Source: an archaeon (lineage in GTDB: Archaea > Iainarchaeota > Iainarchaeia > Iainarchaeales > JANQMZ01). From it: 32,000 nt of DNA. The DNA lies in NCBI GenBank assembly GCA_028279805.1, contig JANQMZ010000007.1, forward strand, positions 660,001 to 692,000. Direction: 5' to 3'. This document shows, piece by piece, positions 16,590 to 29,410 of this stretch. The notes under the pieces were generated by a model, which was not told the DNA's origin, ran no database searches, and saw nothing but the letters and a program-made list of their open reading frames with translations. Each line of letters starts with the position of its first letter. Positions within the stretch are counted from its first letter, which is position 1. The translations under genes were made by a program, and so were the position numbers.

Positions 16590-16594
16590 TTTTT

Positions 16595-16873
16595 ATGTTT
16601 CAATTAAAAAATTTTACTGGAAGGATTTGTTCAGGAAGAACAGGTTATGAATTTTTGCCGCAAAATTCAACCCAACTAAACCTGGAAGAATTGTCAAAAA
16701 AGTTAAACAAAAAAGGAGTTTTTGTTGAAATTGAAACTCCTGACATGCTTTTAATTGATTTTAAAGGCAACGATATCAGCATTTTTAAAACTGGAAAAAT
16801 TTTAATCAAAAACATTGCATCAGAAGCAGAAGCAAAAAAAATTGCAAACCTTTTAATGCAATCCTTAAAATAA
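16595..16873 (+). CDS. Small hypothetical protein (TBP-repeat-like motif)
   Basis: 92 aa, starting 5 nt after the aIF5A stop. The C-terminal half, DISIFKTGKILIKNIASEAEAKKIANLL, resembles the strand-turn-helix motif of TBP-like folds. The antisense 80-aa ORF looks like a shadow ORF. Confidence 0.4.
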   Translation: MFQLKNFTGRICSGRTGYEFLPQNSTQLNLEELSKKLNKKGVFVEIETPDMLLIDFKGNDISIFKTGKILIKNIASEAEAKKIANLLMQSLK

Positions 16874-16948
16874 CAATTTTGCTTCAAAACAAACCCTTAA
16901 ATATTGTTTTTGCTTAATTTACTAAAATTTACTTTCAGGAGGGATTCA

Positions 16949-17617: not shown

Positions 17618-17640
17618 TCTCCTTCTTTATTTTTCTTTTT

Positions 17641-18525
17641 CTACATTTTTCTTAATTTTTTAATTCTTTCTTCTATTGGCGGGTGAGTTGCAAACAAGTT
17701 ATTCAAAAAACTTGGCGTATTTTTTAACGGGTTAGAAATAAACAAATGCGATGTGGCTTTGTTTGCAGACTTTAAAGGCTTATTGTCTTGTGAAATTTTT
17801 TCCAAAGCAGATGCCAACCCCTCCGGATATCTTGTCAATAGTGCTCCAGAAGCATCAGCCAAATATTCTCTTTGTCTTGACACTGCCAATTTTATTATTG
17901 TTGCAACAATCGGCGTTAAAATAGCCAAAACCAAACCCAAAACCAATGCGATGGCTGTTGCCCTGCCATCCCTTCTCCCTCCAAAGCTTCCCCAAAAAAA
18001 TGAACGCAGAATAAAATCACTCAGCAAAGCTGTTACTCCGACCAAAACTGTTATAATGCTCATAAACCGAATATCATAATTGCCAATATGGCTCATTTCA
18101 TGGGCAATAACTCCTTCCAGTTCCTGTTTATTCAGTTTTTTCATTAAACCAGTTGTCACACAAATAACACCATTTTCAGGGTTTCTGCCAGTTGCAAAAG
18201 CATTTAATGCATCTGAGTCAATCACATAACATTTTGGTTTTGGCAATCCCGCAGCAATAGCCAAACCCTCAACGGTGTGATACAAGAATGCTTCATTTTT
18301 TCTGTCAACAGGCCTTGCTTTGCTTATTCTCAGAACAAGTTTATCGGAATAATAATATGAGCCCCAAACCATTGCCAACGCGATTATCGTGGCAATAATT
18401 ATTCCAAAAGTGCTGCTTCCAAACAGTAAACCAAAAACCCAGCCTAATCCTATTATTAAAATTATAAAAAATAATGATAATAGAATGCTGTTTCTTTTGT
18501 TTGATGAAATTCTGTCATAAATCAT
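17641..18525 (-). CDS. htpX: HtpX-type M48 zinc metalloprotease
   Basis: 294 aa. It has N-terminal TM helices, the HEMSH zinc motif (GVIAHEMSHIGNYD) and a C-terminal ATHPPIEERIKKL. Confidence 0.9.
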   Translation of the reverse strand: MIYDRISSNKRNSILLSLFFIILIIGLGWVFGLLFGSSTFGIIIATIIALAMVWGSYYYSDKLVLRISKARPVDRKNEAFLYHTVEGLAIAAGLPKPKCYVIDSDALNAFATGRNPENGVICVTTGLMKKLNKQELEGVIAHEMSHIGNYDIRFMSIITVLVGVTALLSDFILRSFFWGSFGGRRDGRATAIALVLGLVLAILTPIVATIIKLAVSRQREYLADASGALLTRYPEGLASALEKISQDNKPLKSANKATSHLFISNPLKNTPSFLNNLFATHPPIEERIKKLRKM

Positions 18526-18531
18526 TTTTTA

Positions 18532-19089
18532 TCAAAATGAAACTTTTGGAACAGTTTTTTCTGCTTCATCCATTTCAAAATATTCTTCCTGTCCAAATCC
18601 GAACATTTGGGCAAAAATATTGTTTGGAAAAACCTGAATTCCGTTATTGTAATTTAAAACAGAATCATTGTAAAACTGTCTTGCATAAGCTATTTTGTTT
18701 TCAATTCCTGACAATTCTTCCTGCAAATTTAAAAAATTTGCACTTGCTTTTAAGTCAGGATAAGCTTCGGCTACAGCAAACAATGATTTTAATGCAGATG
18801 TTAACATGTTGTTTGCATTTGCATTTTCTTCAACTGTTCCCGCATTAACCAATGCCGATCTTGCTTTTGTTACATTTTCAAAAACACTTTTTTCATGTTT
18901 TGCATAACCTTTAACTGTTTCAATTAAATTGGGAATCAGATTTGTTCTTTTTTTTAACTGAACATCAATCTGGCTCCATGCATTTTTAACCCTGTTGCGC
19001 CTGATAATCAAAGAATTAAAAATTGATATTACAATTATTCCCAGAACAACCAGAATTGCTACGGGAATCCAAAAACCCAGAGAACTCAA
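18532..19089 (-). CDS. lemA: LemA family protein
   Basis: 185 aa. One N-terminal TM helix is followed by [37 protein letters not shown]...YPDLKA...[11 protein letters not shown]. The gene lies 6 nt upstream of htpX, a common pairing. Confidence 0.9.
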
Positions 19090-19128
19090 AAAATCACCTA
19101 TTTAATTCTGCTCTGATTTGTTTTTAAA

Positions 19129-20598
19129 TTAATCCAATTTTTGAAATAACACATTCCCTTTACTTGTTTTTGCTTCCTGCGTCAAATCAAATCTGCACTC
19201 CTGCAGGCTTTTTCCTTCAACGCCAAGCTGTTTTTGAATTTCTTTAGAACTTGCAGGAATAAAAGGCCATAACAAAATACTGATAATTCTTAAAGAGTCA
19301 GCCAAACTGTACAAAACATTTTCCCTGTTTTGCTCATTTTCCCATGGTTTTTTGTCATTAATGAATTTGTTGCATTCTTTTACAAAACCCATTATTTGTC
19401 CGAGAGCCAGATGCAGTTCAAATTTGTTCATATGATTCCTGATTTGATCCAGCTTTAATGCTTTTTTTAACTGTTCATCTGTTTTGCCTTTTGGAATTTT
19501 TCCATCAGAATACCTTTCAATCATTGAAATTGTCCTGTTTAACAGGTTCCCCAGTTCATTGGCTAATTCATTGTTATTCCGCTCTTTTAATGCTTTTTCT
19601 GAGAAAAAGCCGTCCTCGCCAAAAGGAATTTCTCTGACCAAAAAGTAACGAATTGAATCCAGTTCATATTTTTTAACCAAGGCAAAAGGGTCAATCACAT
19701 TGCCTTTGCTTTTGCTCATTTTTTCCCCTGAATCCGTGTTAATAAAGCCATGAACCAAAACTGTTTTTGCAGGTTCAATGTCTGCCGCCATTAAAATTGC
19801 AGGCCAGATTACACTGTGAAACCATAAAATGTCTTTTCCTATTACATGCGCATCAGCAGGCCAGAATTTTTCAAATTTTTTATCCGGGTAATCAATTCCG
19901 GAAATATAATTGGTTAAGGCGTCCAGCCAGACATACAATACATGTTTCTGGTTTATGGGAAGCTTGATTCCCCAGTCAAAACTTGTTCTTGAAATGCTCA
20001 AATCCTTTAATTCTTTTTTAACCCTGTTAACAATTTCTTTTTGCTTTTTTTTTGGCAGAATTGATTCATTTTTTTCCAAATATTTTAACAAAGGTTCCTT
20101 AAATTCTGATAATTTGAAAAAATAACTGTCTTCCTCAATTTCTTCAGGCTTTGTTTTATGAATCGGGCACAAACCATTTTGCAAATCTTTTTTTTGATAA
20201 AAAGCTTCACAATCAGAACAGTACAAACCAACATATTTGTCCAGATAAATTAATTTTTTTTGATTTATTTTGTCAAAAATCTGCAAAACAACTTTTTCAT
20301 GTCTTTTTTCCGTTGTTCTGATAAAATCATTATTGCTAATGTTCCACGCTTTGCATAATTCTTCAAATTTTTTGGCCTGCACATCCACAAATTTTTCAGG
20401 TTTTAATTTTGCTTTTTCTGCAGCTTTTTGAATTTTTTGACCGTGTTCATCTGTGCCTGTTAAAAAAAATGTGTCTTTGCCTTCAAGTGTTTTCCAACGC
20501 GCAATTACATCTGTCACAAGCTTTTCATAAGCATGTCCCATGTGAGGGTTTCCTGACGGATAATCTATTGCGGTTGTTATGTAAAATTTTTCACTCAT
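19129..20598 (-). CDS. metG: Methionyl-tRNA synthetase
   Basis: From ATG 20598 the protein is 489 aa. It has the HIGH motif (PHMGHAYE), a zinc knuckle (CSDCEAF...CPIH) and KMSKS (EKMSKSKGN). The ORF-track start at 20670 adds 24 unrelated residues. There is no C-terminal Trbp111-type domain. Confidence 0.95.
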   Translation of the reverse strand: MSEKFYITTAIDYPSGNPHMGHAYEKLVTDVIARWKTLEGKDTFFLTGTDEHGQKIQKAAEKAKLKPEKFVDVQAKKFEELCKAWNISNNDFIRTTEKRHEKVVLQIFDKINQKKLIYLDKYVGLYCSDCEAFYQKKDLQNGLCPIHKTKPEEIEEDSYFFKLSEFKEPLLKYLEKNESILPKKKQKEIVNRVKKELKDLSISRTSFDWGIKLPINQKHVLYVWLDALTNYISGIDYPDKKFEKFWPADAHVIGKDILWFHSVIWPAILMAADIEPAKTVLVHGFINTDSGEKMSKSKGNVIDPFALVKKYELDSIRYFLVREIPFGEDGFFSEKALKERNNNELANELGNLLNRTISMIERYSDGKIPKGKTDEQLKKALKLDQIRNHMNKFELHLALGQIMGFVKECNKFINDKKPWENEQNRENVLYSLADSLRIISILLWPFIPASSKEIQKQLGVEGKSLQECRFDLTQEAKTSKGNVLFQKLD

Positions 20599-20844
20599 AA
20601 AACATTTTTCCCGTAAAACCAATAAAAGCTTTTTTCCTTTTTTTTTCAAAAAACCGGTTCTGAAAACCAATTATATTTTTTGTTATTGTTTGAATACTTA
20701 ACTCTTCCCTGTTAAATAAATTTAACATATCAGTATATAGTTTTCCGAGCACACGCTCCTGACACAATTTCTCGATACACATTCAAAAGTCAGTGGAAAT
20801 TTACTTCCCAAACTGCCTTTTAAAAGTATGAAAATGGTATATTT

Positions 20845-22947
20845 ATGGTTAGTTCTATCGGAGCGGAAAAAGTCTCAGAAAGCCCTTTTGTGTCAAAATA
20901 CCAGGCTTTTCTGGATTCAAGCTATAAAAAGGAAATTGAAAGGCTGGCTGAACATTACCCCCAGAAACGTTCCCTTAATGTCAATTTTCAGGATTTGGAA
21001 AAATTTGACTATGAATTGGCGGATTCTTTGTTAAGAGATCCTGACACTCATTTGGAGGCTTTGCAGGAATCTGTTGAAAGAATTAATATTCCTTTGCTTG
21101 ATGAACAGGATTTTAAGCCGCATGTTCGTTTTTTTAATTTGCCTGCTGATGCGTGCCCTTTAATCAGAAACCTGGGAGTAGACAGTTTAAGAAAAATGGT
21201 TCAGATTGACGGTGTAATAAAACAAATAACCGACATTATGCCTAAAATTAAAAATTCAACATGGGAATGTCTGGCATGCGGCAATACTTATAAAATTGCC
21301 CAAAAAGAACATGCAATTAACAAGCCTCATATGTGTGAATGCAAAAGCCGTGAATTTAAACTCATTGTGGAAGACTCCGATTACATTGATTATCAAAAAA
21401 TTTTGGTTCAGGAACCTTTGGAATTGTTAAAAGGGAATGAACAGCCAAGCACTTTTGAAGTTCATGTTTATGATGATTTAGTTAACATGGTTACAGCGGG
21501 AGACAGAATTAAAATAACAGGAATTTTAAGATTAAGACCAAGCAAAAAAAACAAACTTGTTTTTGAAAGATTTTTAGAATCAAATTTTTTGGAAAAAACA
21601 GAGGAAAAATTTGAAGAATTGGAAATTTTGCCTGAAGAAAAAGAAAAAATTGAAGAATTGTCAAAAGACCCTTTAATTTATGACAAACTGATTCAAAGTT
21701 TGGCTCCTACAATTTATGGCCATGATGATGTCAAAGAAGCAATAATAATGCAGTTGTTTGGAGGTGTAAAAAAAGTTTTACCGGATGACCAGAAAATAAG
21801 GGGAAATGTTCATGTTTTGCTTGTCGGTGACCCGGGAGCCGCAAAATCAATGATGTTAATGGCAGTGGACCGAGTTGCTCCAAAAAGTGTTTATACATCC
21901 GGAAAAACAACAACCGGTGCAGGAATATCTGCAACAGCTGTTAAGGATGAATTTGGTGAGGGAGGCTGGACTTTAAAAGCGGGAGCATTAGTTTTGGCTT
22001 CAGGCGGTTTGGCTTTAATTGACGAATTTGATAAAATGGATACACAGGACCGTTCGGCGTTACATGAAAGCCTTGAACAGCAGACAATTTCTGTTGCAAA
22101 AGCAGGCATTGTTACAAGGTTTAAAACTGAGACAAGTGTTTTGGCTGCTGCAAACCCTAAAAATGCAAGGTTTGATCCAATGGATGATCTGATTAACCAG
22201 ATTGATTTGCCTGTCACTTTGATGTCAAGATTTGACTTGTTTTTTATTATCCGGGATGAACTGGACAGAACCAAGGACAAAAATATTGCTGAACATATTT
22301 TAAAAAACCATAAAAGCGGTGAAAATTTTGCACAATCCAAAAAAACAGGAAAATCTTTAACAAAAGAAGAACAGGAAACACTGGAATCTTTGCTTCCTCC
22401 AATTGAACCTGAACTGTTAAAAAAATATATTTCTTATGCCCGTCAAAATGTTTTTCCGGTTTTGTCAAAAGAAGCAATTAAAGCAATTTCAGATTTTTAT
22501 ATTGAGTTAAGGGACCGAGGCAGGGAAGAAGGGCAGTATGCTGCGACTCACAGGCAACTTGAAGGCTTGATAAGATTAAGTGAGGCTTCTGCAAGAGTCA
22601 GATTGGCTGATGAAGTTAAAAAATCGGATGCTGAAAGGGCTATTCGATTATTAAAAGATTCACTTGAAAAAGCGTTTACTGACCGAGAAACAGACAGGCT
22701 TGATATTGATATTCTTACAACAGGCAAAAGCCATTCAAAAAGACAGACAATGAAAGAAATTATGAAAATTGTAAGGGATATTACAAAGGAAGAGGACACT
22801 GCGGTTATTGAGAAAGTTGTATCCGAAGCTGACAAGCTTGGAATAGATGAGGACAGGGCAAGAGATGCCATTAATGATTTGTTAAAACAAGGCGATTTAT
22901 ACAAACCTCCGGAAGGGCAGGGAAGAGCTGTTAAACCGGTTGATTAA
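20845..22947 (+). CDS. mcm: MCM replicative helicase
   Basis: 700 aa. It has an N-terminal zinc motif (CLACGN...CECKSREF), Walker A LLVGDPGAAKS, Walker B ALIDEFDKM, the arginine finger SRFDL and a C-terminal winged-helix region. A TATA-like TTTTAAAA at 20818-20825 suggests a near-leaderless start. Confidence 0.95.
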   Translation: MVSSIGAEKVSESPFVSKYQAFLDSSYKKEIERLAEHYPQKRSLNVNFQDLEKFDYELADSLLRDPDTHLEALQESVERINIPLLDEQDFKPHVRFFNLPADACPLIRNLGVDSLRKMVQIDGVIKQITDIMPKIKNSTWECLACGNTYKIAQKEHAINKPHMCECKSREFKLIVEDSDYIDYQKILVQEPLELLKGNEQPSTFEVHVYDDLVNMVTAGDRIKITGILRLRPSKKNKLVFERFLESNFLEKTEEKFEELEILPEEKEKIEELSKDPLIYDKLIQSLAPTIYGHDDVKEAIIMQLFGGVKKVLPDDQKIRGNVHVLLVGDPGAAKSMMLMAVDRVAPKSVYTSGKTTTGAGISATAVKDEFGEGGWTLKAGALVLASGGLALIDEFDKMDTQDRSALHESLEQQTISVAKAGIVTRFKTETSVLAAANPKNARFDPMDDLINQIDLPVTLMSRFDLFFIIRDELDRTKDKNIAEHILKNHKSGENFAQSKKTGKSLTKEEQETLESLLPPIEPELLKKYISYARQNVFPVLSKEAIKAISDFYIELRDRGREEGQYAATHRQLEGLIRLSEASARVRLADEVKKSDAERAIRLLKDSLEKAFTDRETDRLDIDILTTGKSHSKRQTMKEIMKIVRDITKEEDTAVIEKVVSEADKLGIDEDRARDAINDLLKQGDLYKPPEGQGRAVKPVD

Positions 22948-23309
22948 ACAAAAATAACCTGAACGTTTGCTTCTTCAAATTTTGTTTTCTCTGTAATCGT
23001 GTTTTCCGCTTTTTTTATTTCTGTTTCAAGTTCACCATTTTGAAAACCGTTTATTGTTATTTTAATATTTACAGAATTTTTTCCCTCAGAATTTTGAAAA
23101 AATTCGGGGTCATCAATTTTTTCAATAAAATAAAAATCGTTTTGTTTTTGCAGTTCTTTTAATGTATGATTTTTTAACAAAATCATTGAAAAAGTTGTAT
23201 CTGACACGTTAAAAAATTTTCCCAAAACAAGCGTTGCCATTATAAAAATTATTGACATTATTATCAGAAATTCAACTGAAGCCTGTCCCTTATTCTGTTG
23301 CCTGAACAT
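22944..23309 (-). CDS. Type IV pilin-like protein (class III signal peptide)
   Basis: 121 aa with N-terminus MFRQQNKG/QASVEFLIIMSIIFIMATLVL. It is the last gene of the pilus operon. Its stop overlaps the convergent mcm stop (TTAA). Confidence 0.65.
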   Translation of the reverse strand: MFRQQNKGQASVEFLIIMSIIFIMATLVLGKFFNVSDTTFSMILLKNHTLKELQKQNDFYFIEKIDDPEFFQNSEGKNSVNIKITINGFQNGELETEIKKAENTITEKTKFEEANVQVIFV

Positions 23310-23781
23310 TTATTTGTTCTCCTGTTTTGGAAATAATTATTTTTGCTTTAGGAGTTTCGTTTCCGTTTAAAATGGTAAAACAACTGTTTAAAGAATAATT
23401 TAATTTTATGTTTCCCCTGCATCTTTGAATCTCCCCGTTTTCATCCTGTTCGTATGAACATGATTCAACTTCAGCAGGATTTTCTAATTCTATTACATAA
23501 TCAATTTTTTTCCCCAAAACATCACAATCAATTGATGATTTTTCAGGCACAAAAACCCAGAACGTTTTTTTGCTGTCTCCGCTTAAAGAACCAATTTCAT
23601 TAATATTGTCTGCAATAATGTTTGCATGCTGAATGTTTTGAGCAACTCTTTTTGTATCAAGCAAAGCGGTTGAAGAATTTTGCAAAGCGGGATTTATCAC
23701 AGTAAAAAGGTAAATAAGCATTATCAGTATGATTAAAAGGAATTCAATGGATGTCTGTCCTTTTATATTAAAAACTGCCAT
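23290..23781 (-). CDS. Type IV pilin-like protein (class III signal peptide)
   Basis: 163 aa with N-terminus MAVFNIKG/QTSIEFLLIILIMLIYLF and 4 Cys in the soluble part. Confidence 0.65.
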   Translation of the reverse strand: MAVFNIKGQTSIEFLLIILIMLIYLFTVINPALQNSSTALLDTKRVAQNIQHANIIADNINEIGSLSGDSKKTFWVFVPEKSSIDCDVLGKKIDYVIELENPAEVESCSYEQDENGEIQRCRGNIKLNYSLNSCFTILNGNETPKAKIIISKTGEQINVQATE

Positions 23782-24869
23782 AAAACATCTCCGACCAAAT
23801 TTAGCATTACATATCCTATTAATATTGCTGGTGCCAATGGTGCTGATTTTTTTAACATTATTGTGTTTTTTAATTTTTTTTCTTTCACCAGTCTTTTCAA
23901 AATTTTAATTTCCTCCTCTGTAACTCCTCTTGCTTTTTTTTCACTTACAACAATTTTTTCATTTTTTAATGACTGCAATTCTTTTAACCTATTTTCTTTT
24001 AAGTGTTTAATAATTGTTTTTATTCCAACAGATTTTTTTACAATTGCTTTTTTTCCTTTAATTATGATTGTCTGAGCGGGTATTTCCCCTTCTTCCAGCT
24101 GGGTTATTTTTTTTGAATAATTTAAAGCCGGTTTTCCGACAACATAAAGCTGAAAAAATGCAAACAAAAACAATGCAGATATTAATCCTGTAAAAATTTC
24201 AAACGATAAAACAAAAAGTCTTTCATAAATGCTCCATAAAAAAAATGCGTAAAAAAAATATTTTACACTTTTTGAATAATTTTTTTTAATTAAATAATTT
24301 AAAAACATCGCAAAAGCTATGCCAAGCAAAAACAATGTTCCGATGGGGTAAAAAATTTCTCCTGCAATAAGTATTGCCAAAAAGATTCCCATTTTTTTTA
24401 TTCTGTTTTTAAAATTCTGTAAAACTTTTTGCTTTAATTTTTTTTGTTTTCTCAATTCATTTAAAATTAGGAGAACTGAATACGGAAACATGGCAAAAAT
24501 TGAAAAAAACAATAAGCTTACTGTAAAAATTGGCAGAGAAATTGTTCCAAAAATTCCGGCAATATTGTTGTTAAAAGGATTTAATGCTGCGATTCCTGTG
24601 AAAAGTTTTACATCTCCTCCTGCCCAAAAACCAACTTTGTATAACAAAAAAGCCCATGTAAATGTAAAAAGTGTTGCAATTATTGAATTTGTTAAAAAAG
24701 AATAATCGTTTACAAAAAAAGAATAAATGCCATGTCCAGTCAAACCGATTGCAACCATTCCGTATGTTATTTTGTTTGAAATAATTCTTTCCTTCAAATC
24801 AGTATAACTTGCATAAATTAAGCCAATGACTGAAGTAAGGAATAAAAAAACAGGAAAAAATGCTGTCAT
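23763..24869 (-). CDS. Prepilin (class III signal) peptidase, A24 aspartyl protease family (EppA/PibD/FlaK-like)
   Basis: 368 aa and polytopic. The catalytic Asp motifs are ASYTDLKERIISN and FWAGGDVKLF. A Lys-rich soluble segment of about 105 aa sits before the last TM helix. Confidence 0.85.
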   Translation of the reverse strand: MTAFFPVFLFLTSVIGLIYASYTDLKERIISNKITYGMVAIGLTGHGIYSFFVNDYSFLTNSIIATLFTFTWAFLLYKVGFWAGGDVKLFTGIAALNPFNNNIAGIFGTISLPIFTVSLLFFSIFAMFPYSVLLILNELRKQKKLKQKVLQNFKNRIKKMGIFLAILIAGEIFYPIGTLFLLGIAFAMFLNYLIKKNYSKSVKYFFYAFFLWSIYERLFVLSFEIFTGLISALFLFAFFQLYVVGKPALNYSKKITQLEEGEIPAQTIIIKGKKAIVKKSVGIKTIIKHLKENRLKELQSLKNEKIVVSEKKARGVTEEEIKILKRLVKEKKLKNTIMLKKSAPLAPAILIGYVMLNLVGDVLWQFLI

Positions 24870-25048
24870 GCTCCCATTAGGGATGAAATTGTTTTATTTC
24901 TATAGTCAAGCAACTGTGTTTGTGATTCTGTTGCAATATTGTTTACAACAACAATTAATGCAGCTACAGCCAATGTTAAAAGTATTGCAAATGTAACCGT
25001 AAGCAGGTATTCAAAAGACACCTGTGCTTTTGAATCCATTTTAATCAT
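24866..25048 (-). CDS. Short Flp-like type IV pilin (class III signal peptide)
   Basis: 60 aa with N-terminus MIKMDSKA/QVSFEYLLTVTFAILLTLAVAALIVVV. The start overlaps the upstream stop by 4 nt. Confidence 0.7.
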   Translation of the reverse strand: MIKMDSKAQVSFEYLLTVTFAILLTLAVAALIVVVNNIATESQTQLLDYRNKTISSLMGA

Positions 25049-25332
25049 CTTACACAGTTTTGAGGATCAGCGCATGCATGACATTCTGATATTGTGTCCG
25101 CATCCAAATCCACCCATTCACAGTCTGCCACAGTATCATTGTCAACATCTGCAGCATCACACTGTACTTTTGTTTGCTTTTGGGCGCACAATGCTTCTTT
25201 TAATCCGGACTCTGTTCCCTGTTCCGCCTGTTGTTGAATTGTTGTCATAACAGTCAAAACTACAGCCGCAATTAATATTGCGCCGCCTATTAGCAACAGG
25301 TATTCTAAAGCGCCTTGTCCTTTTTTGTTCAA
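25045..25332 (-). CDS. Type IV pilin with a Cys6/Asp-rich C-terminal head domain
   Basis: 95 aa. A TTG start at 25332 is preceded by GGAGGG with 6-nt spacing. The N-terminus MNKKG/QGALEYLLLIGGAILIAAVVLTVM is followed by CAQKQTKVQCDAADVDNDTVADCEWVDLDADTISECHACADPQNC. Confidence 0.7.
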   Translation of the reverse strand: MNKKGQGALEYLLLIGGAILIAAVVLTVMTTIQQQAEQGTESGLKEALCAQKQTKVQCDAADVDNDTVADCEWVDLDADTISECHACADPQNCVR

Positions 25333-25356
25333 TTTTTTCCCTCCAATTTTTTATAA

Positions 25357-25500
25357 TTATGATGATTCTTCTTTTATTTCTTCTCCAATTGTGTTTGCGG
25401 TTGTTTTTAAGTATAATCCTATTATTGCGGTTACAAAAATTATTCCGCCTAAAATTATTAAATATTCCAAGCTGACTTGTGCTTTTTTCTCCTTAAACAT
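25357..25500 (-). CDS. Very short Flp-like type IV pilin (47 aa, absent from the ORF track)
   Basis: Hand translation of the minus strand from ATG 25500 gives MFKEKKA/QVSLEYLIILGGIIFVTAIIGLYLKTTANTIGEEIKEESS, with a stop at 25357-25359. The ATG directly abuts the stop of the upstream platform gene (25501). Confidence 0.7.
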   Translation of the reverse strand: MFKEKKAQVSLEYLIILGGIIFVTAIIGLYLKTTANTIGEEIKEESS

Positions 25501-26439
25501 TTAAGCCCCGCCGACAAGTGTTGAGCCCAAAAAGGCTGATGCGTAGAACACAAAATATGCAATTAATAGGAGCATTGGAATGTATATAATACTTTTGGTA
25601 ATTTTTCCGTTTCTCATTATTGCAAGCATTGCTCCTATCGCAATAGCCTCAATTAAAACATAAAACTGCATTAAGTTTACAATTAATTCTTTTGCATTCA
25701 AAGAATTTTGAATAATTGTTTGAGGTAAATTTAAGCCTGATGCAGCAGTTTCAATAAAAAATGCAATAATTGATGAAACTAATCCGAAAATAAACGGTGC
25801 GACAAATGCTCCGGCTGCAACCATAAACATTGCCTGCATTAATGTTGATGACTTTCTTTCCTCCTTTAATCTGTTCATTTCCCTTATGTCATCTGCTATT
25901 TCATCCAAAACATTTGCCAGTCCCGCGCCGGCCTTTATTGAATCAATTATTATGTTAACCGTTCTTTTAATCAGCCTGCTATCAATATTGTTTGAAAATC
26001 CGAGCAAAGAATTTTCCAGGTTGCCTCCCTCTTCAATTCTTCTTAATGCTATTTCCATTTCATCTGTTAACGGGCCGTATTCTGCATTTGTTATTTCTCT
26101 TAAAGCGTATTCATATGTGCCTCCCGCCTTTAAAGTGTCAGCCATTTGTTTTAATGCATCCGGAAAAGCCTGTTCTATTAATTCAATTCTTTTTTCAGCT
26201 TTAAAATAAGGATATCCTGCAAACAAGTCCAGAAAAACAACAAAAACTATTAATGATAACAATGGTGATACTGGCAGTTTCAAAAAAGTTATTGTAAAAA
26301 AACTTGCAATTCCAAAACCTGTTGAAATTATTATTGAAAGTATTATCCAGATTTTTGGATTAATTTTCCATCCGTATTGTCTTAAATGGTTTTCATAATT
26401 TTTCCATGCATTCATTTTAAATCCTCGGCTGCGTCCCAT
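25501..26439 (-). CDS. Type IV pilus platform protein, single T2SSF domain (TadC-like)
   Basis: 312 aa. Two N-terminal TM helices are followed by the cytoplasmic helical domain FPDALKQMADTLKAGGTYEYALREI...GPLTDEMEIALRRIEEGGNLENSL and then C-terminal TM helices. Confidence 0.8.
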   Translation of the reverse strand: MGRSRGFKMNAWKNYENHLRQYGWKINPKIWIILSIIISTGFGIASFFTITFLKLPVSPLLSLIVFVVFLDLFAGYPYFKAEKRIELIEQAFPDALKQMADTLKAGGTYEYALREITNAEYGPLTDEMEIALRRIEEGGNLENSLLGFSNNIDSRLIKRTVNIIIDSIKAGAGLANVLDEIADDIREMNRLKEERKSSTLMQAMFMVAAGAFVAPFIFGLVSSIIAFFIETAASGLNLPQTIIQNSLNAKELIVNLMQFYVLIEAIAIGAMLAIMRNGKITKSIIYIPMLLLIAYFVFYASAFLGSTLVGGA

Positions 26440-27499
26440 TAATGTATGAAATCATAAAAAGCAAAAGCAATGGCATTATCACCAAATATATTACCGCTAT
26501 TGACAACGGCGTTAAAGGAATTATTTGGAGTGCTCCTCCTCCGATTGATAACGGAACATTTCTTATTCCTCCTAACACCGCCACAAAAACCGGGAAAACT
26601 ATTGCTATGAAAATAAAAATGACCCCGAAAAAATTTAGCCTTTGGGCAAAATCTTTCATGCTGTTTTTTAATTCAAATGAAACATCTTCAGCTATTTCAG
26701 TCATTATATTTGACAAATTTCCGCCGGTTTTTAAGGCTCTGATTATGTGGGTTAAAGCATTCCTTAAAGGCTTTGATTCTGTTCTTAATGCCATATGTTT
26801 TAAGGCTTCTTTTGTATCTGTCCCTTCCTCTATTTCAATAATTGATCTTGAAAATTCTTCGGATAATGCGCCATAGTCTGCCATTGAAATGGTTTGAATT
26901 GTCCTGTATAATCCGAGGCCTGATTTTAATTCTGTTGCAATATGCCTTAATGCAAAAGGCAGTTCAACATTTATTGCATTTGCTCTTGCTGTTGATTTTC
27001 TTTTTGGAACCGACAGCATCACTATTTCAGCCATTAAAAAAGCCAGAATAGCTATGGGAACGATCAGTGCGGCATCCGGAAATCCTAAAAACAAGTTTAA
27101 GGCTCCGAAGACAAGCAATGAAAAAATTAATCCGATAAATCCTAAAATTGTTGAAATGGCAATCCATTGTTTTGCTGAATATTTCATATCAGCAGCATAC
27201 AAATAATATCCGAGTTTATCAGCAAAAGGCAGTCTTATTGTTATTTTTGTTAATGGTTCCAAAATTGTTCTTAACCCTAAATATAATCTGCCAAGCCTTC
27301 TTATCATCGGTGAATCAAAATCAACCAGATCTTCAACTCTTTGAATTTCTATTTCCGCTGCTTTCCCTTCAGTAATAATTCCGTGCAATTCGTCAAGGCT
27401 TTCTGTTTCAACGTTTAAATCTTCTTGTGAATATTTTTTTTTCATTCTTTTAACTATTTCTTCAACTTGTTTTGTATCAATGTTTTCATCTTCAGGCAT
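26417..27499 (-). CDS. Type IV pilus platform protein, single T2SSF domain (TadB-like)
   Basis: About 360 aa from ATG 27499, which is preceded by AGGTGA and lies 1 nt after the ATPase stop. It has FALRHIATELKSGLGLYRTIQTI...GALSEEFSRSIIEIEEGTDTKEAL plus TM helices. Confidence 0.8.
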   Translation of the reverse strand: MPEDENIDTKQVEEIVKRMKKKYSQEDLNVETESLDELHGIITEGKAAEIEIQRVEDLVDFDSPMIRRLGRLYLGLRTILEPLTKITIRLPFADKLGYYLYAADMKYSAKQWIAISTILGFIGLIFSLLVFGALNLFLGFPDAALIVPIAILAFLMAEIVMLSVPKRKSTARANAINVELPFALRHIATELKSGLGLYRTIQTISMADYGALSEEFSRSIIEIEEGTDTKEALKHMALRTESKPLRNALTHIIRALKTGGNLSNIMTEIAEDVSFELKNSMKDFAQRLNFFGVIFIFIAIVFPVFVAVLGGIRNVPLSIGGGALQIIPLTPLSIAVIYLVIMPLLLLFMISYINGTQPRI

Positions 27500-27500
27500 T

Positions 27501-29312
27501 TTAATCACCTGAGTTATCCAAATATTTTTGCATTTCTTCTGATACAATGCTCATTTCTCTTTTTTTTTCCTGAATAAGTTTTTTTAAAAAATTTTCTCTT
27601 TTTTTTAATTCTTCTAAAATCTGCTGGTTTGTTAATCCTGACAAGTCCTGTAATTTTTTCAAATAATTGCTCGGAATATTTGTTTTTTCAATGCTGTCTT
27701 TTGAAGCTGTTCTTTCAAAAAGAGTTTGTGTTTCAGGTTTTTTTTGTAATGCTCCTGTCACTTCTGACAATTCTGTTATTCTTCTAATTGTTCCTTTTTT
27801 TTTGTCATGCAACCTGTGCTGCACTAATACAAAGTCTAATCCTGATAACATTGTCACCGGAACATTCATTGGCGGGTTTGAAACTCTTATTATTGTTTCT
27901 TCACCTGAATTGGAGTGAACCGTGCCCAGAGAACCATCGTGCCCCGTGTTCATAGCGGTAAAAAGGGTAAAGGCTTCATCATGCCTTATTTCCCCGACAA
28001 TAATTCTGTCAGGACGCATTCTAAGCGAGTTTTTTGTTAAAATGTCCATTTTTATTTCCCCTTTTTCTTCTAAACCCGGAGGCCTTGCTTCTAATCTTAT
28101 CCAGTGTTCCAAAGGCAGATTTAATTCAGCTGTATCCTCAATTGTTACAATTCTTTCACTTTTGGGAACAAATGAAGCTAAAACATTTAATGTTGTGGTT
28201 TTTCCTGAACCTGTGCCTCCTGCAATTAAAATATTTGCAGGTCTTGTTCTAAGCCCTTCAACACATAACCACAGAAAAGCAGCCAATTCTATTGTTAAAG
28301 TGTTTGAATTAATTAAATCAATTATTGAATAAGGGTCTTTTCTGAATTTTCTTATTGTAAGACTTGAACCTGAAACAGATGCCGGTGCAATTGTTGCATT
28401 AACTCTTGAACCGTCCGGTAATTTTGCATCAAGCAACGGCGCACTAATGTCAACACGTCTCCCCACCTCTCTTGCTATTCTGTTAATAACATCGTTTATT
28501 TCATCATCTGAAAAAAATTCAATATTTGTTTTCATCATTTCATGTTTCCTATGAAACACGTAAACAGGTTTTCCTTTTCCTATAACCATTATTTCTTCAA
28601 GCTGGTCGTCCCTGATAAGCAAATCAATTAAACCATAGCCAACCATCTCCCTCACAACAGAATCTGCATAAAATTCAAATTTTCTTTTTGGAATTTTTAA
28701 TTCAGGAGATTCTTCCAGTATTTCCAAAATTTTCTGCCTGTAAACATTTCTTCTTTGTTCCGGGTCTCTGATTTTATATGGGGCGATTGAAATAAGTCTT
28801 GTAGCTGCCTCTTTTAATGTGTAAATTATTGATTTTTCGCTTTGATTTGGTTTTGGAACAGGAATATAATAATATAACAATGGCTTGCCGGGAATTTTGT
28901 AAATTTTTGTTTCTCCGTATGATTCAATTTCTTTTTTTTCCCCGCTTTTTAATTCTTTTTCTGCTTCAGATTGTTTTGGCGTTTCTTCTTTTGCAGGATC
29001 TTCAATTGTTTTTTCTTTTAATTCATGCAATGCTTTTTTTGCTTCCGCCGGAATTTCAATTTGTTCCTCTTTTTCAACAATTGGTTTTGCTTCCAATTCT
29101 TTTTCGGGAAACTCCTGTTTTTTTTCCAAAAATTCATCTGCTGGTTTTGTTTTTTGAACAGGTTTTTCTTTTAATTTTTTTTCAAAGCCGGTTTTTTGTT
29201 CTTTTTTTTCCAAAACCGTTTCATTTTTTTTTTCAGGTGCTTTTTCTTTTTCTTCTTTGGCTTTTTTAATCATGTCTTTCAAATAGTCAGCCACAGACAC
29301 ACCCACCAACAA
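27501..29312 (-). CDS. Type II/IV secretion-family pilus assembly ATPase (FlaI/TadA/PilB-like) with a K/E-rich N-terminal extension
   Basis: Up to 603 aa. It has Walker A ILIAGGTGSGKTT, Walker B PDRIIVGEIR and the His box NTGHDGSLGTVHS. The first approximately 130 aa are low-complexity K/E/P. The start is uncertain, with candidates TTG 29312, GTG 29306/29300/29294 and ATG 29273. Confidence 0.9.
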   Translation of the reverse strand: MLVGVSVADYLKDMIKKAKEEKEKAPEKKNETVLEKKEQKTGFEKKLKEKPVQKTKPADEFLEKKQEFPEKELEAKPIVEKEEQIEIPAEAKKALHELKEKTIEDPAKEETPKQSEAEKELKSGEKKEIESYGETKIYKIPGKPLLYYYIPVPKPNQSEKSIIYTLKEAATRLISIAPYKIRDPEQRRNVYRQKILEILEESPELKIPKRKFEFYADSVVREMVGYGLIDLLIRDDQLEEIMVIGKGKPVYVFHRKHEMMKTNIEFFSDDEINDVINRIAREVGRRVDISAPLLDAKLPDGSRVNATIAPASVSGSSLTIRKFRKDPYSIIDLINSNTLTIELAAFLWLCVEGLRTRPANILIAGGTGSGKTTTLNVLASFVPKSERIVTIEDTAELNLPLEHWIRLEARPPGLEEKGEIKMDILTKNSLRMRPDRIIVGEIRHDEAFTLFTAMNTGHDGSLGTVHSNSGEETIIRVSNPPMNVPVTMLSGLDFVLVQHRLHDKKKGTIRRITELSEVTGALQKKPETQTLFERTASKDSIEKTNIPSNYLKKLQDLSGLTNQQILEELKKRENFLKKLIQEKKREMSIVSEEMQKYLDNSGD

Positions 29313-29325
29313 AAGAGCTTTTTTT

Positions 29326-29333
29326 TATTTAAA
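29326..29333 (-). promoter_or_regulatory. TATA-like box (TTTAAATA on the minus strand) upstream of the pilus operon
   Basis: The minus strand reads GGTTTAAATAAAAAAAAGC, 15-30 nt upstream of the candidate start codons of the ATPase gene. The same GGTTTAAAT core occurs upstream of the coiled-coil gene and of rpl15e. Confidence 0.4.
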
Positions 29334-29410
29334 CCTATCTTTAAACGGGTTTAGAGCAACTTTTAAACTTTTTTACACGGGAATTGTTAAACTAAAAAAG
29401 GTGTATTTTT

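What the first reader, a model, noticed from the sequence alone, without database searches (positions are those of the whole stretch)
22944..29312. Complete nine-gene Epd/Tad-like type IV pilus operon with split platform genes and Flp-sized pilins
Seen: nine co-directional minus-strand genes have abutting or overlapping start and stop codons.
- A secretion ATPase with GGTGSGKTT, DRIIVGEIR and GHDGSLGTVHS.
- Two separate single-domain T2SSF-like membrane proteins (312 and about 360 aa).
- Three short proteins (47, 95 and 60 aa) with K-[GA]/Q-x-[SA]-x-E-[YF]-L N-termini.
- An A24 peptidase with YTDLKER and GGDVKLF.
- Two larger KG/QxSxEFL proteins.
Established: these N-termini are class III signal peptides, and Gln at +1 is the preference reported for the Methanococcus EppA/Epd system. 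As I recall, splitting the platform into two half-size genes and mature pilins of about 40-55 aa are hallmarks of the Tad/Flp and archaeal Epd-type branch. Archaellum loci would carry FlaH, FlaF/G and about 200-aa archaellins, which are absent here. Inference: this is an adhesion or attachment filament. In a small-genome episymbiont-like archaeon it is a candidate host-contact organelle, and the specific combination here may not match a characterised system.
Basis: partly seen in the sequence, partly recalled or inferred. Interest (0 to 1): 0.65.

Follow-up and report, generated by a model that had tools for sequence, protein, structure and literature searches.

The report
Epd-type archaeal pilus operon, split supercluster
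This is a real, complete type IV pilus gene set of the already known archaeal Epd ("System 1", Tad-like) kind from a tiny DPANN archaeon (Iainarchaeota). It is one half of a larger gene cluster, conserved across the phylum, whose other half (two DNA-uptake-type membrane genes and four more pilin-like genes) lies 13 kb away in the same window.

Summary
Nine tightly packed minus-strand genes (22944-29312) encode:
- a T2SSE ATPase;
- two single-domain T2SSF platform proteins;
- three short pilins (47, 95 and 60 aa);
- an EppA-type A24 peptidase;
- two larger pilin-like proteins.

All five pilins have G/A|Q at +1 and Glu at +5.

The Epd/Tad-like reading holds. No archaellin was found in the genome. 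The ATPase falls outside the FlaI clade, and its best solved relative is the Tad ATPase CpaF.

This kind is already described: Makarova 2016 clade 1, Denise 2019 Epd-like, and Sivabalasarma & Albers 2026 System 1, which includes DPANN. The ATPase ortholog was found in all 121 phylum genomes sampled.

What I add concerns the size of the unit. In most relatives the nine genes run straight into a membrane-anchored OB-fold gene, a TctA-like gene, a JAMM protease gene and four more pilin-like genes. In this genome that second half sits at 5014-9808, separated by a 13-kb housekeeping block. Methanococcus needs an OB/TctA pair of the same architecture, together with its Epd pilus, to take up DNA. DNA capture and import is therefore as likely a role as adhesion. 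Host contact is untested.

This scan had already noted the same linkage in other Iainarchaeota genomes. Interest is moderate.

The parts
27501..29312 (-). Assembly ATPase (603 aa). VirB11/T2SSE family, EpdL/CpaF-like, with a Lys/Glu-rich N-terminal extension of about 130 aa.
   Evidence: Pfam T2SSE, E = 1.9e-46. Best PDB matches: CpaF 239 bits, AfGspE 231, FlaI 204. Walker A, Walker B and His box are present. Orthologs at 49-67% identity were found in 121 of 121 phylum genomes sampled.
26417..27547 (-). Platform protein 1 (EpdJ/K- or TadB/C-like). One T2SSF domain. The start is probably the ATG at 27499 (360 aa).
   Evidence: Pfam T2SSF, E = 4.3e-19, a single domain at residues 199-325. Four or five hydrophobic segments.
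25501..26439 (-). Platform protein 2 (312 aa), one T2SSF domain.
   Evidence: Pfam T2SSF, E = 1.7e-18, residues 96-219. It aligns to the C-terminal half of the FlaJ and UpsF models.
25357..25500 (-). Type A pilin, 47 aa (MFKEKKA|QVSLEYL). The mature form would be about 40 aa, the size of Flp.
   Evidence: Class_IIIsignal, E = 1e-5, above the cut-off. A 46-64 aa pilin of this type is the first gene after platform 2 in 23 of the 26 relatives' loci examined.
25045..25332 (-). Type B pilin, 95 aa (MNKKG|QGALEYLLLIGGAIL), with an acidic C-terminal part holding six Cys. Candidate major pilin (inference).
   Evidence: Class_IIIsignal, E = 9.1e-9. Relatives have 1-3 copies with a near-invariant N-terminus and a variable C-terminus (40-180 aa). 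A TATA-like element and GGAGG lie in the 24-nt gap upstream.
24866..25048 (-). Type C pilin, 60 aa (MIKMDSKA|QVSFEYLL). The mature form would be about 52 aa.
   Evidence: Weak Class_IIIsignal match (E = 0.016). In all 26 relatives' loci examined, the last pilin gene before the peptidase is of this type.
23763..24869 (-). Dedicated prepilin peptidase of the long EppA type (368 aa).
   Evidence: Peptidase_A24, E = 7.3e-14, plus Arc_PepC, E = 1.3e-10. NCBIfam EppA model: 75 bits, aligned over positions 6-328 of 334. Both Asp motifs are present. Among the 14 control genomes, Arc_PepC is found only in M. jannaschii.
23290..23781 (-). Pilin-like protein, 163 aa (IKG|QTSIEFLL). Candidate minor or tip pilin.
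   Evidence: Class_IIIsignal, E = 4.2e-5. AlphaFold2 model (pLDDT 94): a 63-residue N-terminal helix plus a 7-strand beta head. No solved structural relative was found.
22944..23309 (-). Pilin-like protein, 121 aa (NKG|QASVEFLI). Last gene of this half; its stop overlaps the convergent MCM gene.
   Evidence: Class_IIIsignal, E = 6.6e-4, below the cut-off. Conserved after the 163-aa gene in relatives.
29313..29410 (-). A/T-rich upstream region with TATA-like boxes (TTTAAATA about 20 nt before the TTG start). Possible promoter.
   Evidence: Sequence read. This is inference only; no transcript data were available.
9809..22943 (.). A 13-kb housekeeping block that interrupts the ancestral supercluster in this lineage. 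It holds MCM, MetRS, LemA, HtpX, aIF5A, a DUF2226 gene with MinD, a coiled-coil protein, a TtcA-like gene, L15e, RNase P p30 and an HD-domain gene.
   Evidence: ORFs and Pfam results. The same block splits the cluster in G034 and G049. It is absent from that position in G001, G054, G053, G028, G006, G004 and others.
9440..9808 (-). Membrane-anchored OB-fold protein (122 aa: one N-terminal transmembrane helix plus a nucleic-acid-binding-type OB fold).
   Evidence: Pfam tRNA_anti-codon OB fold, E = 2.4e-7; 32 of 33 orthologs match it. One transmembrane segment at residues 10-28. Same architecture as M. maripaludis MMJJ_13020 (PMC10133366).
8254..9465 (-). TctA-like polytopic membrane protein (403 aa). 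It overlaps the OB-fold gene by 26 nt.
   Evidence: Pfam TctA, E = 9.3e-50, full length. No TctC was found in the genome. In 59 of the 71 relatives where both genes are on one contig, it lies 3.6-12 kb downstream of the ATPase on the same strand.
7881..8252 (-). JAMM/JAB metalloprotease-like protein (123 aa) with an intact HxHx7Sx2D motif.
   Evidence: Pfam Prok-JAB, E = 1.8e-11. It follows TctA in nearly all Iainarchaeota loci. It is retained in family f10, where TctA is not detectable.
6685..7884 (-). Cofactor-independent phosphoglycerate mutase (ApgM-like). Probably a housekeeping passenger in the cluster.
   Evidence: Pfam Metalloenzyme and PhosphMutase. Present at this position in only some relatives.
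5014..6652 (-). Four overlapping pilin-like genes (129, 162, 95 and 161 aa; N-termini KKG|QISFDFL, KKG|QIISLDFL, KKG|MIFTIDAI, KKG|SYTLL). They form the distal end of the supercluster and are followed by a T-run.
   Evidence: ORFs. Orthologs lie in the same order after JAB or ApgM in relatives. AlphaFold2 model of the 162-aa protein (pLDDT 93): a 56-residue N-terminal helix plus an alpha/beta head. No Pfam match and no solved structural relative.

Best explanation
The nine genes are the assembly half of an Epd-type (archaeal T4F 'System 1', Tad-like) type IV pilus system of an Iainarchaeota (DPANN) archaeon.

Proposed mechanism:
1. The in-operon EppA-type aspartyl peptidase removes the short class III signal peptide between G/A and Gln+1 of the five prepilins.
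2. The hexameric ATPase docks on a heterodimeric platform made of the two half-size T2SSF proteins.
3. ATP hydrolysis lifts the mature 40-90-residue, largely helical pilins out of the membrane into a thin Flp-like filament.
4. The 163- and 121-aa proteins (an N-terminal helix with a small globular head) act as minor, priming or tip pilins.

The operon is not a self-contained unit. Ancestrally in this phylum it continues, on the same strand, into five further elements:
- a membrane-anchored OB-fold protein;
- a TctA-like channel-type protein;
- a JAMM protease;
- in some genomes, a phosphoglycerate mutase;
- four more pilin-like genes.

In this genome a 13-kb housekeeping block has split the unit, and the second half lies at 5014-9808.

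By analogy with Methanococcus, where the Epd pilus and an OB/TctA pair of the same architecture are each essential for natural transformation, the whole system most likely both adheres and captures and imports extracellular DNA.

What is shown: gene content, domain identity, signal-peptide signature, conservation and synteny.

What is inferred: pilus assembly, which pilin is the major one, DNA uptake, and any role in host contact.
For: Domain identities.

Signal peptides: all five pilins have Gln at +1 and Glu at +5, matching the published EppA substrates RAQI, KGQV, KGQL and KGQI (PMC4371748).

Defining features from the literature: two single-T2SSF platform genes plus short pilins define the Epd-like/Tad clade (PMC6668835). 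Two TadC genes plus the long EppA peptidase define clade 1 / System 1 (PMC4858521; PMC13705601).

ATPase affinities:
- CpaF is the best solved relative.
- The ATPase clade lies outside the FlaI+AfGspE clade, which has 100/99 support alone and 91/94 support when the stand-alone paralog is included.
- The ortholog in archaeon GW2011_AR10 carries an intein whose best PDB match is the M. jannaschii MJ0781 (KlbA) intein, E = 1e-34.

No archaellin was found in the genome.

Conservation and synteny:
- The ATPase ortholog is present in 121 of 121 phylum genomes sampled.
- TctA lies a median of 6.5 kb downstream on the same strand in 59 of the 71 genomes where both genes share a contig.
- Gene-by-gene synteny of the full supercluster was seen in more than 20 loci.

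OB/TctA pair: the architecture matches MMJJ_13020 and MMJJ_13030, both essential for transformation (PMC10133366). No TctC and no ComEC were found.

Other gene families on the Methanococcus transformation list are also present in the genome:
- a MinD-like gene in the window;
- an SNase gene;
- an archaeosortase-family gene.
Against: - No EpdL reference sequence could be placed in the tree. Membership of the ATPase in clade 1 therefore rests on indirect evidence, and CpaF was unresolved in the small tree.
- The peptidase scores far below the NCBIfam EppA equivalog cut-off (75 against 450 bits).
- No MinD/FlaH-like secondary ATPase lies in the operon.
- Operon neighbours are not proof of shared function. 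A glycolytic mutase sits in the same cluster, the OB/TctA half is physically separated here, and it has its own TATA-like upstream element.
- The pilus operon persists where TctA is not detectable (0 of 15 sampled genomes of family f10 had a TctA match) or is interrupted by stop codons (G061).
- OB/TctA pairs occur in other DPANN with no pilus genes detected within 8 kb.
- Only 1 of 5 TctA-bearing genomes outside Iainarchaeota that were tested had an Arc_PepC (EppA marker) match.
- Direct orthology of the OB/TctA pair to the Methanococcus genes was not tested.
- There are no expression data.
Confidence: 0.8

Rival explanations
1. A pure adhesion or host-contact pilus. The nine genes make an Epd/Tad-like adhesive filament only. 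The OB/TctA/JAB genes next to it in relatives are unrelated neighbours (for example a small-molecule transporter), as the phosphoglycerate mutase is.
For: - Epd pili of M. maripaludis and bacterial Tad pili are documented adhesins.
- The operon is retained in the 15 sampled f10 genomes, where TctA was not detectable, and in G061, where TctA carries five in-frame TAG codons.
- A housekeeping mutase sits in the same cluster.
- In this genome the two halves are 13 kb apart.
Against: - The same-strand adjacency is conserved in 59 of 71 genomes, including one genome of the phylum outside G000's order (G004).
- In f10 an OB-like transmembrane protein and a 327-aa polytopic membrane protein still occupy the same position.
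- There is no TctB or TctC partner for a transporter role (TctC search; archaeal TctA-like proteins lack both, PMC10133366).
- In Methanococcus, the Epd pilus and an OB/TctA pair of this architecture are all required for the same process.
Confidence: 0.35
2. A pseudopilus or bindosome-like machine. Short filaments of these pilins would present or export proteins or substrates, in the manner of a type II secretion system or the Sulfolobus bindosome, rather than form long adhesive pili.
For: - The NCBIfam bindosome ATPase model BasE matches at 177 bits.
- The system has many pilin-like proteins (nine in the two halves).
- Sivabalasarma & Albers 2026 propose functionalised T4F machines.
Against: - BasE scores far below its cut-off (177 against 1000 bits) and below the FlaI and TadA models.
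- No substrate-binding proteins with class III signals lie in the cluster.
- The bindosome platform is a single two-domain protein, whereas here it is split.
Confidence: 0.07
3. An archaellum or a degenerate motility apparatus.
For: The highest-scoring NCBIfam model is FlaI (308.7 bits). The platform halves align to FlaJ models.
Against: - The FlaI score is well below the 550-bit cut-off.
- No archaellin was found anywhere in the 93.7%-complete genome at E <= 1, although the control archaea do match.
- The ATPase is excluded from the FlaI/AfGspE clade.
- The pilins are 47-163 aa with Gln at +1, which FlaK does not process (PMC4371748).
- No FlaH, FlaF or FlaG was apparent in the flanking ORF lists, which were read but not searched by domain.
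Confidence: 0.02

Closest known systems
Epd (EppA-dependent) pilus of Methanococcus maripaludis. Also called archaeal T4F 'System 1' (Sivabalasarma & Albers 2026, PMC13705601), clade 1 (Makarova 2016, PMC4858521) and 'Epd-like' (Denise 2019, PMC6668835).
   Same: - VirB11-type ATPase.
- Two separate single-T2SSF platform genes.
- A dedicated long EppA-type peptidase with the Arc_PepC domain.
- Prepilins with a K/R-G/A|Q cleavage site and Glu at +5.
- Very short helical pilins together with several larger minor pilins.
- Already reported as the predominant pilin type in Nanobdellati (DPANN).
   Different: - Everything is in one locus with the order ATPase, platform 1, platform 2, pilins, peptidase, pilins. 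In M. maripaludis, epdJKL, eppA/epdA-I and the major pilin lie at separate loci (locus tags).
- No MinD/FlaH-like gene is in the operon.
- The peptidase and ATPase score below the equivalog cut-offs.
- Ancestrally the operon is fused in line with the OB-fold/TctA-like pair, a JAMM protease and four more pilin-like genes. In M. maripaludis the OB/TctA pair is at yet another locus.
Bacterial Tad/Flp pilus (CpaF/TadA, TadB, TadC, Flp, TadV).
   Same: - CpaF is the best solved relative of the ATPase (239 bits).
- Split platform.
- Flp-sized pilins with Glu at +5.
- One ATPase and no PilT paralog in the locus.
   Different: - This is an archaeal system without a secretin (RcpA), TadD, TadZ, or TadE/F/G.
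- The peptidase is the archaeal EppA type, not TadV.
- The tree did not resolve a specific sister relation with CpaF.
Methanococcus natural-transformation genes MMJJ_13020 (OB-fold protein with one transmembrane helix) and MMJJ_13030 (TctA-like) (Fonseca et al. 2023, PMC10133366).
   Same: - The same two-gene architecture, adjacent and overlapping: a single-transmembrane OB-fold nucleic-acid-binding protein followed by a TctA-family polytopic protein.
- No TctB or TctC partner.
- It co-exists with an Epd-type pilus.
   Different: - In Iainarchaeota the pair is ancestrally in line with the pilus operon, followed by a JAMM protease and four pilin-like genes.
- In this genome the pair is split from the pilus operon by 13 kb.
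- Sequence-level orthology to the Methanococcus genes was not tested, and the function is untested.
Conserved DPANN type IV pilus-like loci with coiled-coil proteins (Hamm et al. 2024, PMC11291902).
   Same: DPANN loci with a CpaF-like ATPase and TadC-like platform genes, proposed to mediate cell-cell interaction.
   Different: - Those loci were described for 'cluster 2' DPANN and Undinarchaeota, not for Diapherotrites/Iainarchaeota.
- The locus here has no coiled-coil protein inside it. A 458-aa coiled-coil gene lies in the intervening block, and its link to the pilus is untested.

Membership tests
Archaeal T4F System 1 / clade 1 / Epd-like pilus | Secretion ATPase of the VirB11/T2SSE family. 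| tested here: met
   Pfam T2SSE, E = 1.9e-46. Walker A, Walker B and His box are intact.
Archaeal T4F System 1 / clade 1 / Epd-like pilus | The ATPase belongs phylogenetically to clade 1, with EpdL and sister to bacterial TadA/CpaF. | tested here: inconclusive
   No EpdL sequence was available. The best PDB relative is CpaF. The ATPase lies outside the FlaI+AfGspE clade, but CpaF is unresolved. The AR10 ortholog carries an MJ0781/KlbA-type intein. From memory, MJ0781 is the Methanocaldococcus clade-1 ATPase; I could not verify this.
Archaeal T4F System 1 / clade 1 / Epd-like pilus | Two contiguous platform genes, each with one T2SSF domain. | tested here: met
   One T2SSF domain in each of the 376- and 312-aa proteins. 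Platform 1 aligns mainly, and platform 2 clearly, to the C-terminal half of the FlaJ model; in the UpsF model platform 1 matches the N-terminal half and platform 2 the C-terminal half.
Archaeal T4F System 1 / clade 1 / Epd-like pilus | Dedicated long prepilin peptidase EppA (arCOG02300 type). | tested here: met
   Peptidase_A24 plus Arc_PepC. The alignment to the NCBIfam EppA model covers its full length, but the score is below the equivalog cut-off (75 against 450 bits). Among the controls, Arc_PepC is found only in M. jannaschii.
Archaeal T4F System 1 / clade 1 / Epd-like pilus | Prepilins with Gln at +1 and Glu at +5 (DUF361 / Class_IIIsignal). | tested here: met
   Five of five in-operon pilins. 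The same signature is seen in 26 relatives' loci. Published signature.
Archaeal T4F System 1 / clade 1 / Epd-like pilus | Short major pilin without a globular head. | tested here: met
   Precursors of 47 and 60 aa (about 40 and 52 aa when mature). Which pilin is the major one is not known.
Archaeal T4F System 1 / clade 1 / Epd-like pilus | A MinD/FleN-type (arCOG00589) or FlaH-like secondary ATPase associated with the locus. | tested here: not met
   None in the operon. A MinD-family gene lies 7 kb away (14827-15621), but only because of the lineage-specific inserted block. It is not near the cluster in relatives with the contiguous arrangement. The literature describes this component as frequent, not obligatory.
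Bacterial Tad/Flp pilus | Secretin RcpA, TadZ, the TadE/F/G pseudopilins and the TadV peptidase. | tested here: not met
   No such domains in the nine proteins. There is only a sub-threshold TadE hit (E = 0.14) on the 121-aa protein. The system works like Tad but is not a member.
Archaellum | Archaellins (Arch_flagellin), a FlaI equivalog and a two-domain FlaJ. | tested here: not met
   No Arch_flagellin match in the genome at E <= 1. FlaI model: 308.7 bits against a 550-bit cut-off. The platform is split.
Archaeal transformation module (OB-fold + TctA-like, MMJJ_13020/13030 type) | Adjacent genes for a single-transmembrane OB-fold protein and a TctA-family protein, without TctB or TctC. | tested here: met
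   OB fold, E = 2.4e-7, and TctA, E = 9.3e-50. One transmembrane segment in the OB protein. The genes overlap by 26 nt. No TctC in the genome.
Archaeal transformation module (OB-fold + TctA-like, MMJJ_13020/13030 type) | Orthology to the M. maripaludis genes and a requirement for DNA uptake. | not tested
   No Methanococcus sequence could be reached with the tools. Only the architecture was compared with the description in the paper. Function needs an experiment.

The most novel reading that the evidence does not exclude
Iainarchaeota carry, as one ancestral co-directional supercluster, a complete archaeal 'competence machine'. It would consist of an Epd-type pilus, a surface-anchored OB-fold DNA receptor, a TctA-like DNA channel, a JAMM protease and a four-member accessory pilin set.

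If so, the conserved operonic fusion is independent comparative-genomic evidence that the OB/TctA pair is the dedicated partner of Epd pili and the long-sought archaeal DNA translocon. It would play the part that ComEA and ComEC play in bacteria; 5 of 33 OB orthologs even give weak, sub-threshold hits to DUF4131, which as I recall is the N-terminal domain of ComEC. In these tiny-genome archaea the machine may serve to scavenge DNA or nucleotides.
Probability: 0.4. Interest if true: 0.7.

Novelty: new variant of a known kind. Interest (0 to 1): 0.42.

Why it matters
The pilus itself is an ordinary member of a described class, so the nine-gene operon alone adds little.

What matters is the context. 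How archaea move DNA across the membrane is an open question. The only genetic lead is the Methanococcus OB-fold/TctA-like pair, which sits at a locus of its own there. In Iainarchaeota that pair is ancestrally written into the same transcription-direction unit as the Epd-type pilus. This holds in 59 of the 71 sampled genomes where both genes lie on one contig.

This gives a testable, independent argument that the pilus, the OB protein and the TctA-like protein work together. It also nominates extra candidate parts: the JAMM protease and the four accessory pilins.

For annotating this window, it joins two separately noted features, the 'main operon' and the 'orphan pilin cluster', into one system. 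It also cautions against the default 'host-attachment organelle' reading for DPANN pili.

Tried and rejected
- Archaellum reading: rejected.
- Reference tree for the ATPase. I could not obtain EpdL, Aap or Ups sequences, because no named Methanococcus or Sulfolobus genome can be reached. I built a 12-row tree from the PDB-aligned cores of CpaF, AfGspE and FlaI plus the five paralogs of this genome and four orthologs. It excludes the FlaI clade but leaves CpaF unresolved, with long-branch warnings for three paralogs.
- The search for related loci with an 8-sequence TctA alignment failed because no stretch was conserved enough. A 4-sequence alignment worked but returned no Methanococcales locus, so direct comparison with MMJJ_13020 and MMJJ_13030 was not possible.
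- Foldseek of confident AlphaFold2 models of the 163-aa and 162-aa pilin-like proteins against the PDB gave nothing at E < 0.01. The pilin-like call for their heads rests on secondary-structure layout only.
- Co-occurrence of TctA with the EppA marker outside the phylum: only 1 of 5 genomes matched, so there is no general rule.
- The Makarova 2016 supplements do not mention MJ0781 or MMP0040 in the text that is held.
- The sigma-70 promoter scanner was not used because it does not apply to archaea. TATA-like boxes were only read by eye.
- MinD plus DUF2226 as a counterpart of MMJJ_11080/11090: considered but not claimed. The Methanococcus partner's domain content is not given in the paper, and the pair is near the cluster only in the split lineage.

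Full report
OBSERVATION

The window is G000:C9:660001-692000 of an 876-kb, 14-contig genome that is 93.7% complete. Its relatives are named Candidatus Iainarchaeum, Diapherotrites or archaeon GW2011_AR10, so it is a DPANN archaeon.

One search confirms nine co-directional minus-strand ORFs between 22944 and 29312. Their junctions abut or overlap: a 1-nt gap or a 47-nt overlap depending on which start is used for the first platform gene, then gaps or overlaps of 0, 24, -4, -4, -19 and -20 nt.

Pfam and NCBIfam give:
- T2SSE for the 603-aa protein (E = 1.9e-46);
- exactly one T2SSF domain in each of the two membrane proteins (4.3e-19 and 1.7e-18);
- Peptidase_A24 plus the archaeal C-terminal domain Arc_PepC for the 368-aa protein;
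- Class_IIIsignal for all five small proteins, three above the gathering score and two weaker.

All five read [KR]-[GA]|Q-x-[SA]-x-E-[FY]-L.

CLASSIFICATION

The literature defines this kind precisely.
- Makarova et al. 2016 (PMC4858521) describe clade 1. It has an ATPase, two TadC genes, small major pilins of about 70 aa, at least five minor pilins, often a MinD/FleN ATPase, and the long EppA peptidase, which is found only in clade-1 organisms.
- Denise et al. 2019 (PMC6668835) describe the 'Epd-like' clade. It groups with bacterial Tad, and both have two platform genes with one T2SSF domain each and short major pilins.
- Sivabalasarma & Albers 2026 (PMC13705601) describe 'System 1'. [quoted passage not shown]
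- Pohlschroder & Esquivel 2015 (PMC4371748) report that EppA substrates have a conserved Gln at +1 and Glu at +5. The processing sites are RAQI, KGQV, KGQL and KGQI. EppA requires Gln at +1, and FlaK refuses it.

The window's operon meets these features (see the membership table).

Tests against the archaellum reading:
- No Arch_flagellin match exists anywhere in the genome at E <= 1, while the control archaea do match.
- The FlaI equivalog model scores 308.7 bits against a cut-off of 550.
- The best solved relative is the Tad ATPase CpaF (239 bits), ahead of AfGspE (231) and FlaI (204).
- I built a small maximum-likelihood tree from the PDB-aligned cores, the genome's five ATPase paralogs and four orthologs. 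In it FlaI+AfGspE form a 100/99 clade that also takes in a different paralog of this genome (91/94). The window's ATPase and its orthologs lie outside that clade. CpaF was not resolved, and no EpdL reference could be obtained, so clade-1 membership of the ATPase stays indirect.

One further indirect link exists. The ortholog in archaeon GW2011_AR10 carries a 438-aa insert in the His box, between G460 and S461 of the window protein. Its best PDB match is the M. jannaschii MJ0781 (KlbA) intein (E = 1e-34).

CONSERVATION

An ortholog of the ATPase, mostly 49-67% identical, was found in all 121 phylum genomes sampled.

Between the second platform gene and the peptidase, 26 relatives' loci show the same series. 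In 23 of them the series starts with a 46-64-aa 'type A' pilin. In 24 of them, one to three 'type B' pilins follow; these have an almost invariant GQGALEYLLLIGGAVL N-terminus and a C-terminal part of very variable length (40-180 aa). All 26 end with a 'type C' pilin, mostly 56-82 aa.

The conserved helix combined with a variable exposed part and variable copy number makes type B (the 95-aa gene here) my candidate for the major pilin. In the window it is preceded by TTATAAAA and GGAGG in the only real intergenic gap of the operon. This is an inference.

THE OPERON IS HALF OF A LARGER UNIT

This lead came from earlier notes of this scan on other genomes, and I tested it here.

The window also holds, on the same strand at 5014-9808, these genes in order:
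- a 122-aa protein with one N-terminal transmembrane helix and a nucleic-acid-binding-type OB fold (PF01336, E = 2.4e-7; 32 of 33 orthologs match);
- a full-length TctA-family protein (E = 9.3e-50), overlapping the OB gene by 26 nt;
- a JAMM/JAB protein with an intact HxHx7Sx2D motif;
- a cofactor-independent phosphoglycerate mutase;
- four overlapping pilin-like genes, ending in a T-run.

I searched the same 121 genomes with the TctA protein and compared coordinates. Of the 71 genomes where both genes lie on one contig:
- 59 have TctA 3.6-12 kb (median 6.5 kb) downstream of the ATPase on the same strand;
- 6, including this genome, have it 17-30 kb downstream;
- 6 are otherwise rearranged.

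Gene-by-gene annotation of 14 fetched loci and about 30 named loci gives the ancestral order. It runs ATPase, platform 1, platform 2, pilins A/B/C, EppA, pil163, pil121, OB, TctA, JAB, sometimes ApgM, then p129, p162, p95b and p161, with an asparagine-synthetase-like gene on the opposite strand at the end. Examples are the complete AR10 genome and G004, a genome of the phylum outside G000's order.

In this genome and in G034 and G049 of family f7, the unit is cut after pil121 by a block holding MCM, MetRS, LemA, HtpX, aIF5A, DUF2226 with MinD, a coiled-coil gene, a TtcA-like gene, L15e, RNase P p30 and an HD-domain gene. G099 (f7) and G051 (f11) show the same long ATPase-to-TctA spacing. The block is 13 kb here.

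The 'assembly-gene-less second pilin cluster' of this window is therefore the distal end of the same system.

AlphaFold2 models, built with 25-28-sequence alignments (pLDDT 93-94), show the pilin 'lollipop' layout for pil163 (a 63-residue helix plus a 7-strand beta head) and for p162 (a 56-residue helix plus an alpha/beta head). Foldseek finds no solved relative for either head.

FUNCTION

Fonseca et al. 2023 (PMC10133366) showed that M. maripaludis needs several things for natural transformation: its Epd pilus genes (epdJKL, eppA, epd pilins), an operon of an OB-fold protein with one transmembrane helix (MMJJ_13020), and a TctA-like protein (MMJJ_13030). They proposed the TctA-like protein as the archaeal DNA transporter. 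In that organism the three gene sets sit at three loci.

The Iainarchaeota arrangement puts gene sets of the same architecture in one co-directional cluster. The genome has no TctC and no ComEC domain. It does have single members of other families on the Methanococcus list: a MinD-like gene, an SNase and an archaeosortase-family gene. These are family-level matches only.

I therefore rate 'adhesive Epd-type pilus that also feeds a DNA-uptake route' as the best reading of the whole system. DNA uptake is marked as inference, at about 0.4-0.45.

Points against the DNA-uptake reading:
- A housekeeping mutase shares the cluster.
- The halves are separated here, and the OB gene has its own TATA-like upstream element.
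- The pilus operon persists in family f10, where TctA is not detectable (0 of 15 sampled genomes). However, in the f10 locus I read through (G014), an OB-like transmembrane protein and a 327-aa membrane protein with no Pfam match still sit at that position.
- TctA carries five in-frame TAG codons in G061, while its neighbours are intact.
- Outside the phylum the OB/TctA pair occurs with no pilus genes detected within 8 kb.
- Only 1 of 5 TctA-bearing genomes outside the phylum that I tested has the EppA marker domain.

Nothing in the sequence bears on it. The window even encodes a PurF-like amidophosphoribosyltransferase, so the organism is not obviously unable to make nucleotides.

GENOMIC CONTEXT

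This 0.88-Mb genome has five T2SSE ATPases and three ATPase-plus-split-platform modules, at about 330 kb, 572 kb and 686 kb. It has only two A24 peptidases: the in-operon EppA type and a 269-aa short form at 635 kb. The window's module is the only one with its own peptidase and with Flp-sized pilins.

NOVELTY AND PRIOR WORK

The pilus kind is known and has been reported in DPANN. A full-text search found no paper linking TctA, DPANN and pili. Earlier follow-ups of this scan had already reported the Epd-plus-OB/TctA linkage in at least six other Iainarchaeota genomes.

What is specific here is that this genome shows the split state, and that the window's two separately noted features belong together.

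I class it as a new variant of a known kind, of moderate interest.

TOOLS

Noticed in passing
Relatives only, e.g. L019:15413-18568 (archaeon GW2011_AR10). The corresponding site in the window is ATPase residue 460/461 (about window 27930).: In about 25 of the 121 relatives, the orthologous ATPase ORF is 770-1570 aa, and the match breaks at query residue about 462 (His box) or about 396 (after IEDTAEL). The AR10 insert (438 aa, ending ...VSN|C) best matches the M. jannaschii MJ0781/KlbA intein (PDB 2jmz, E = 1e-34). The window's gene has no intein.
   Followed up: partly
G000:C9:654694-656253 (+), 3.7 kb before the window's start (L003:1072-2631).: A stand-alone T2SSE ATPase paralog (519 aa, 46% identical over the core) with no platform gene beside it. 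It groups with FlaI/AfGspE in the tree (91/94). In relatives it is conserved 20-40 kb from the main ATPase, on the same contig and the opposite strand. M. maripaludis also has one extra VirB11-like ATPase not next to a pilC gene, which has been discussed as a possible retraction ATPase (PMC4371748).
   Followed up: partly
window 14827-16123 (-): A DUF2226/DUF4388-like 158-aa protein is followed 25 nt later by a MinD-family ATPase. In M. maripaludis, a MinD-like ATPase (MMJJ_11080) and an adjacent hypothetical protein (MMJJ_11090) are both essential for transformation. Whether these are counterparts was not tested. The pair lies near the pilus genes only in the lineage with the inserted block.
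   Followed up: partly
G000:C9:706184-708572 and 710537-710839 (14-19 kb beyond the window's end): A third cluster of pilin-like genes with class III signals (NRA|QVSVE, TKA|QASLEY, QKG|QIVIEA and others) and no assembly genes. About 2 kb further on is the genome's only SNase (thermonuclease-family) gene. A secreted thermonuclease is on the Methanococcus transformation gene list.
   Followed up: no
L109:9908-11231 (G014, family f10): In family f10, TctA is not detectable (0 of 15 sampled genomes at E <= 1e-10). In G014, the position after pil121 is still occupied by an OB-like protein with a transmembrane helix (119 aa) and a 327-aa polytopic membrane protein with no Pfam match. That OB-like protein and 4 other orthologs give weak, sub-threshold hits to DUF4131, which as I recall is the N-terminal module of bacterial ComEC.
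   Followed up: partly
L117:8995-10152 (G061:C1:491485-492654): The TctA ortholog of G061 carries five in-frame stop codons, all TAG. They sit at positions where the congeneric G006 has G, N, I, L and K. The ATPase, platforms, pilins, peptidase and JAB of the same cluster have none. This is probably a pseudogene, but having only TAG stops in a 30% G+C genome is odd.
   Followed up: partly
L022:7513-11034 (G049): The MCM ortholog next to the pilus operon in G049 is 1173 aa, against 700 aa in the window (20845-22947). It probably carries an intein.
   Followed up: no
window 12993-14369 (-): A 458-aa Lys/Glu-rich coiled-coil protein with no Pfam match lies in the block between the two halves of the pilus system. 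Its orthologs in G034 and G049 are 731-835 aa. Hamm et al. 2024 linked coiled-coil proteins to DPANN pilus loci in other lineages. No link was tested here.
   Followed up: no
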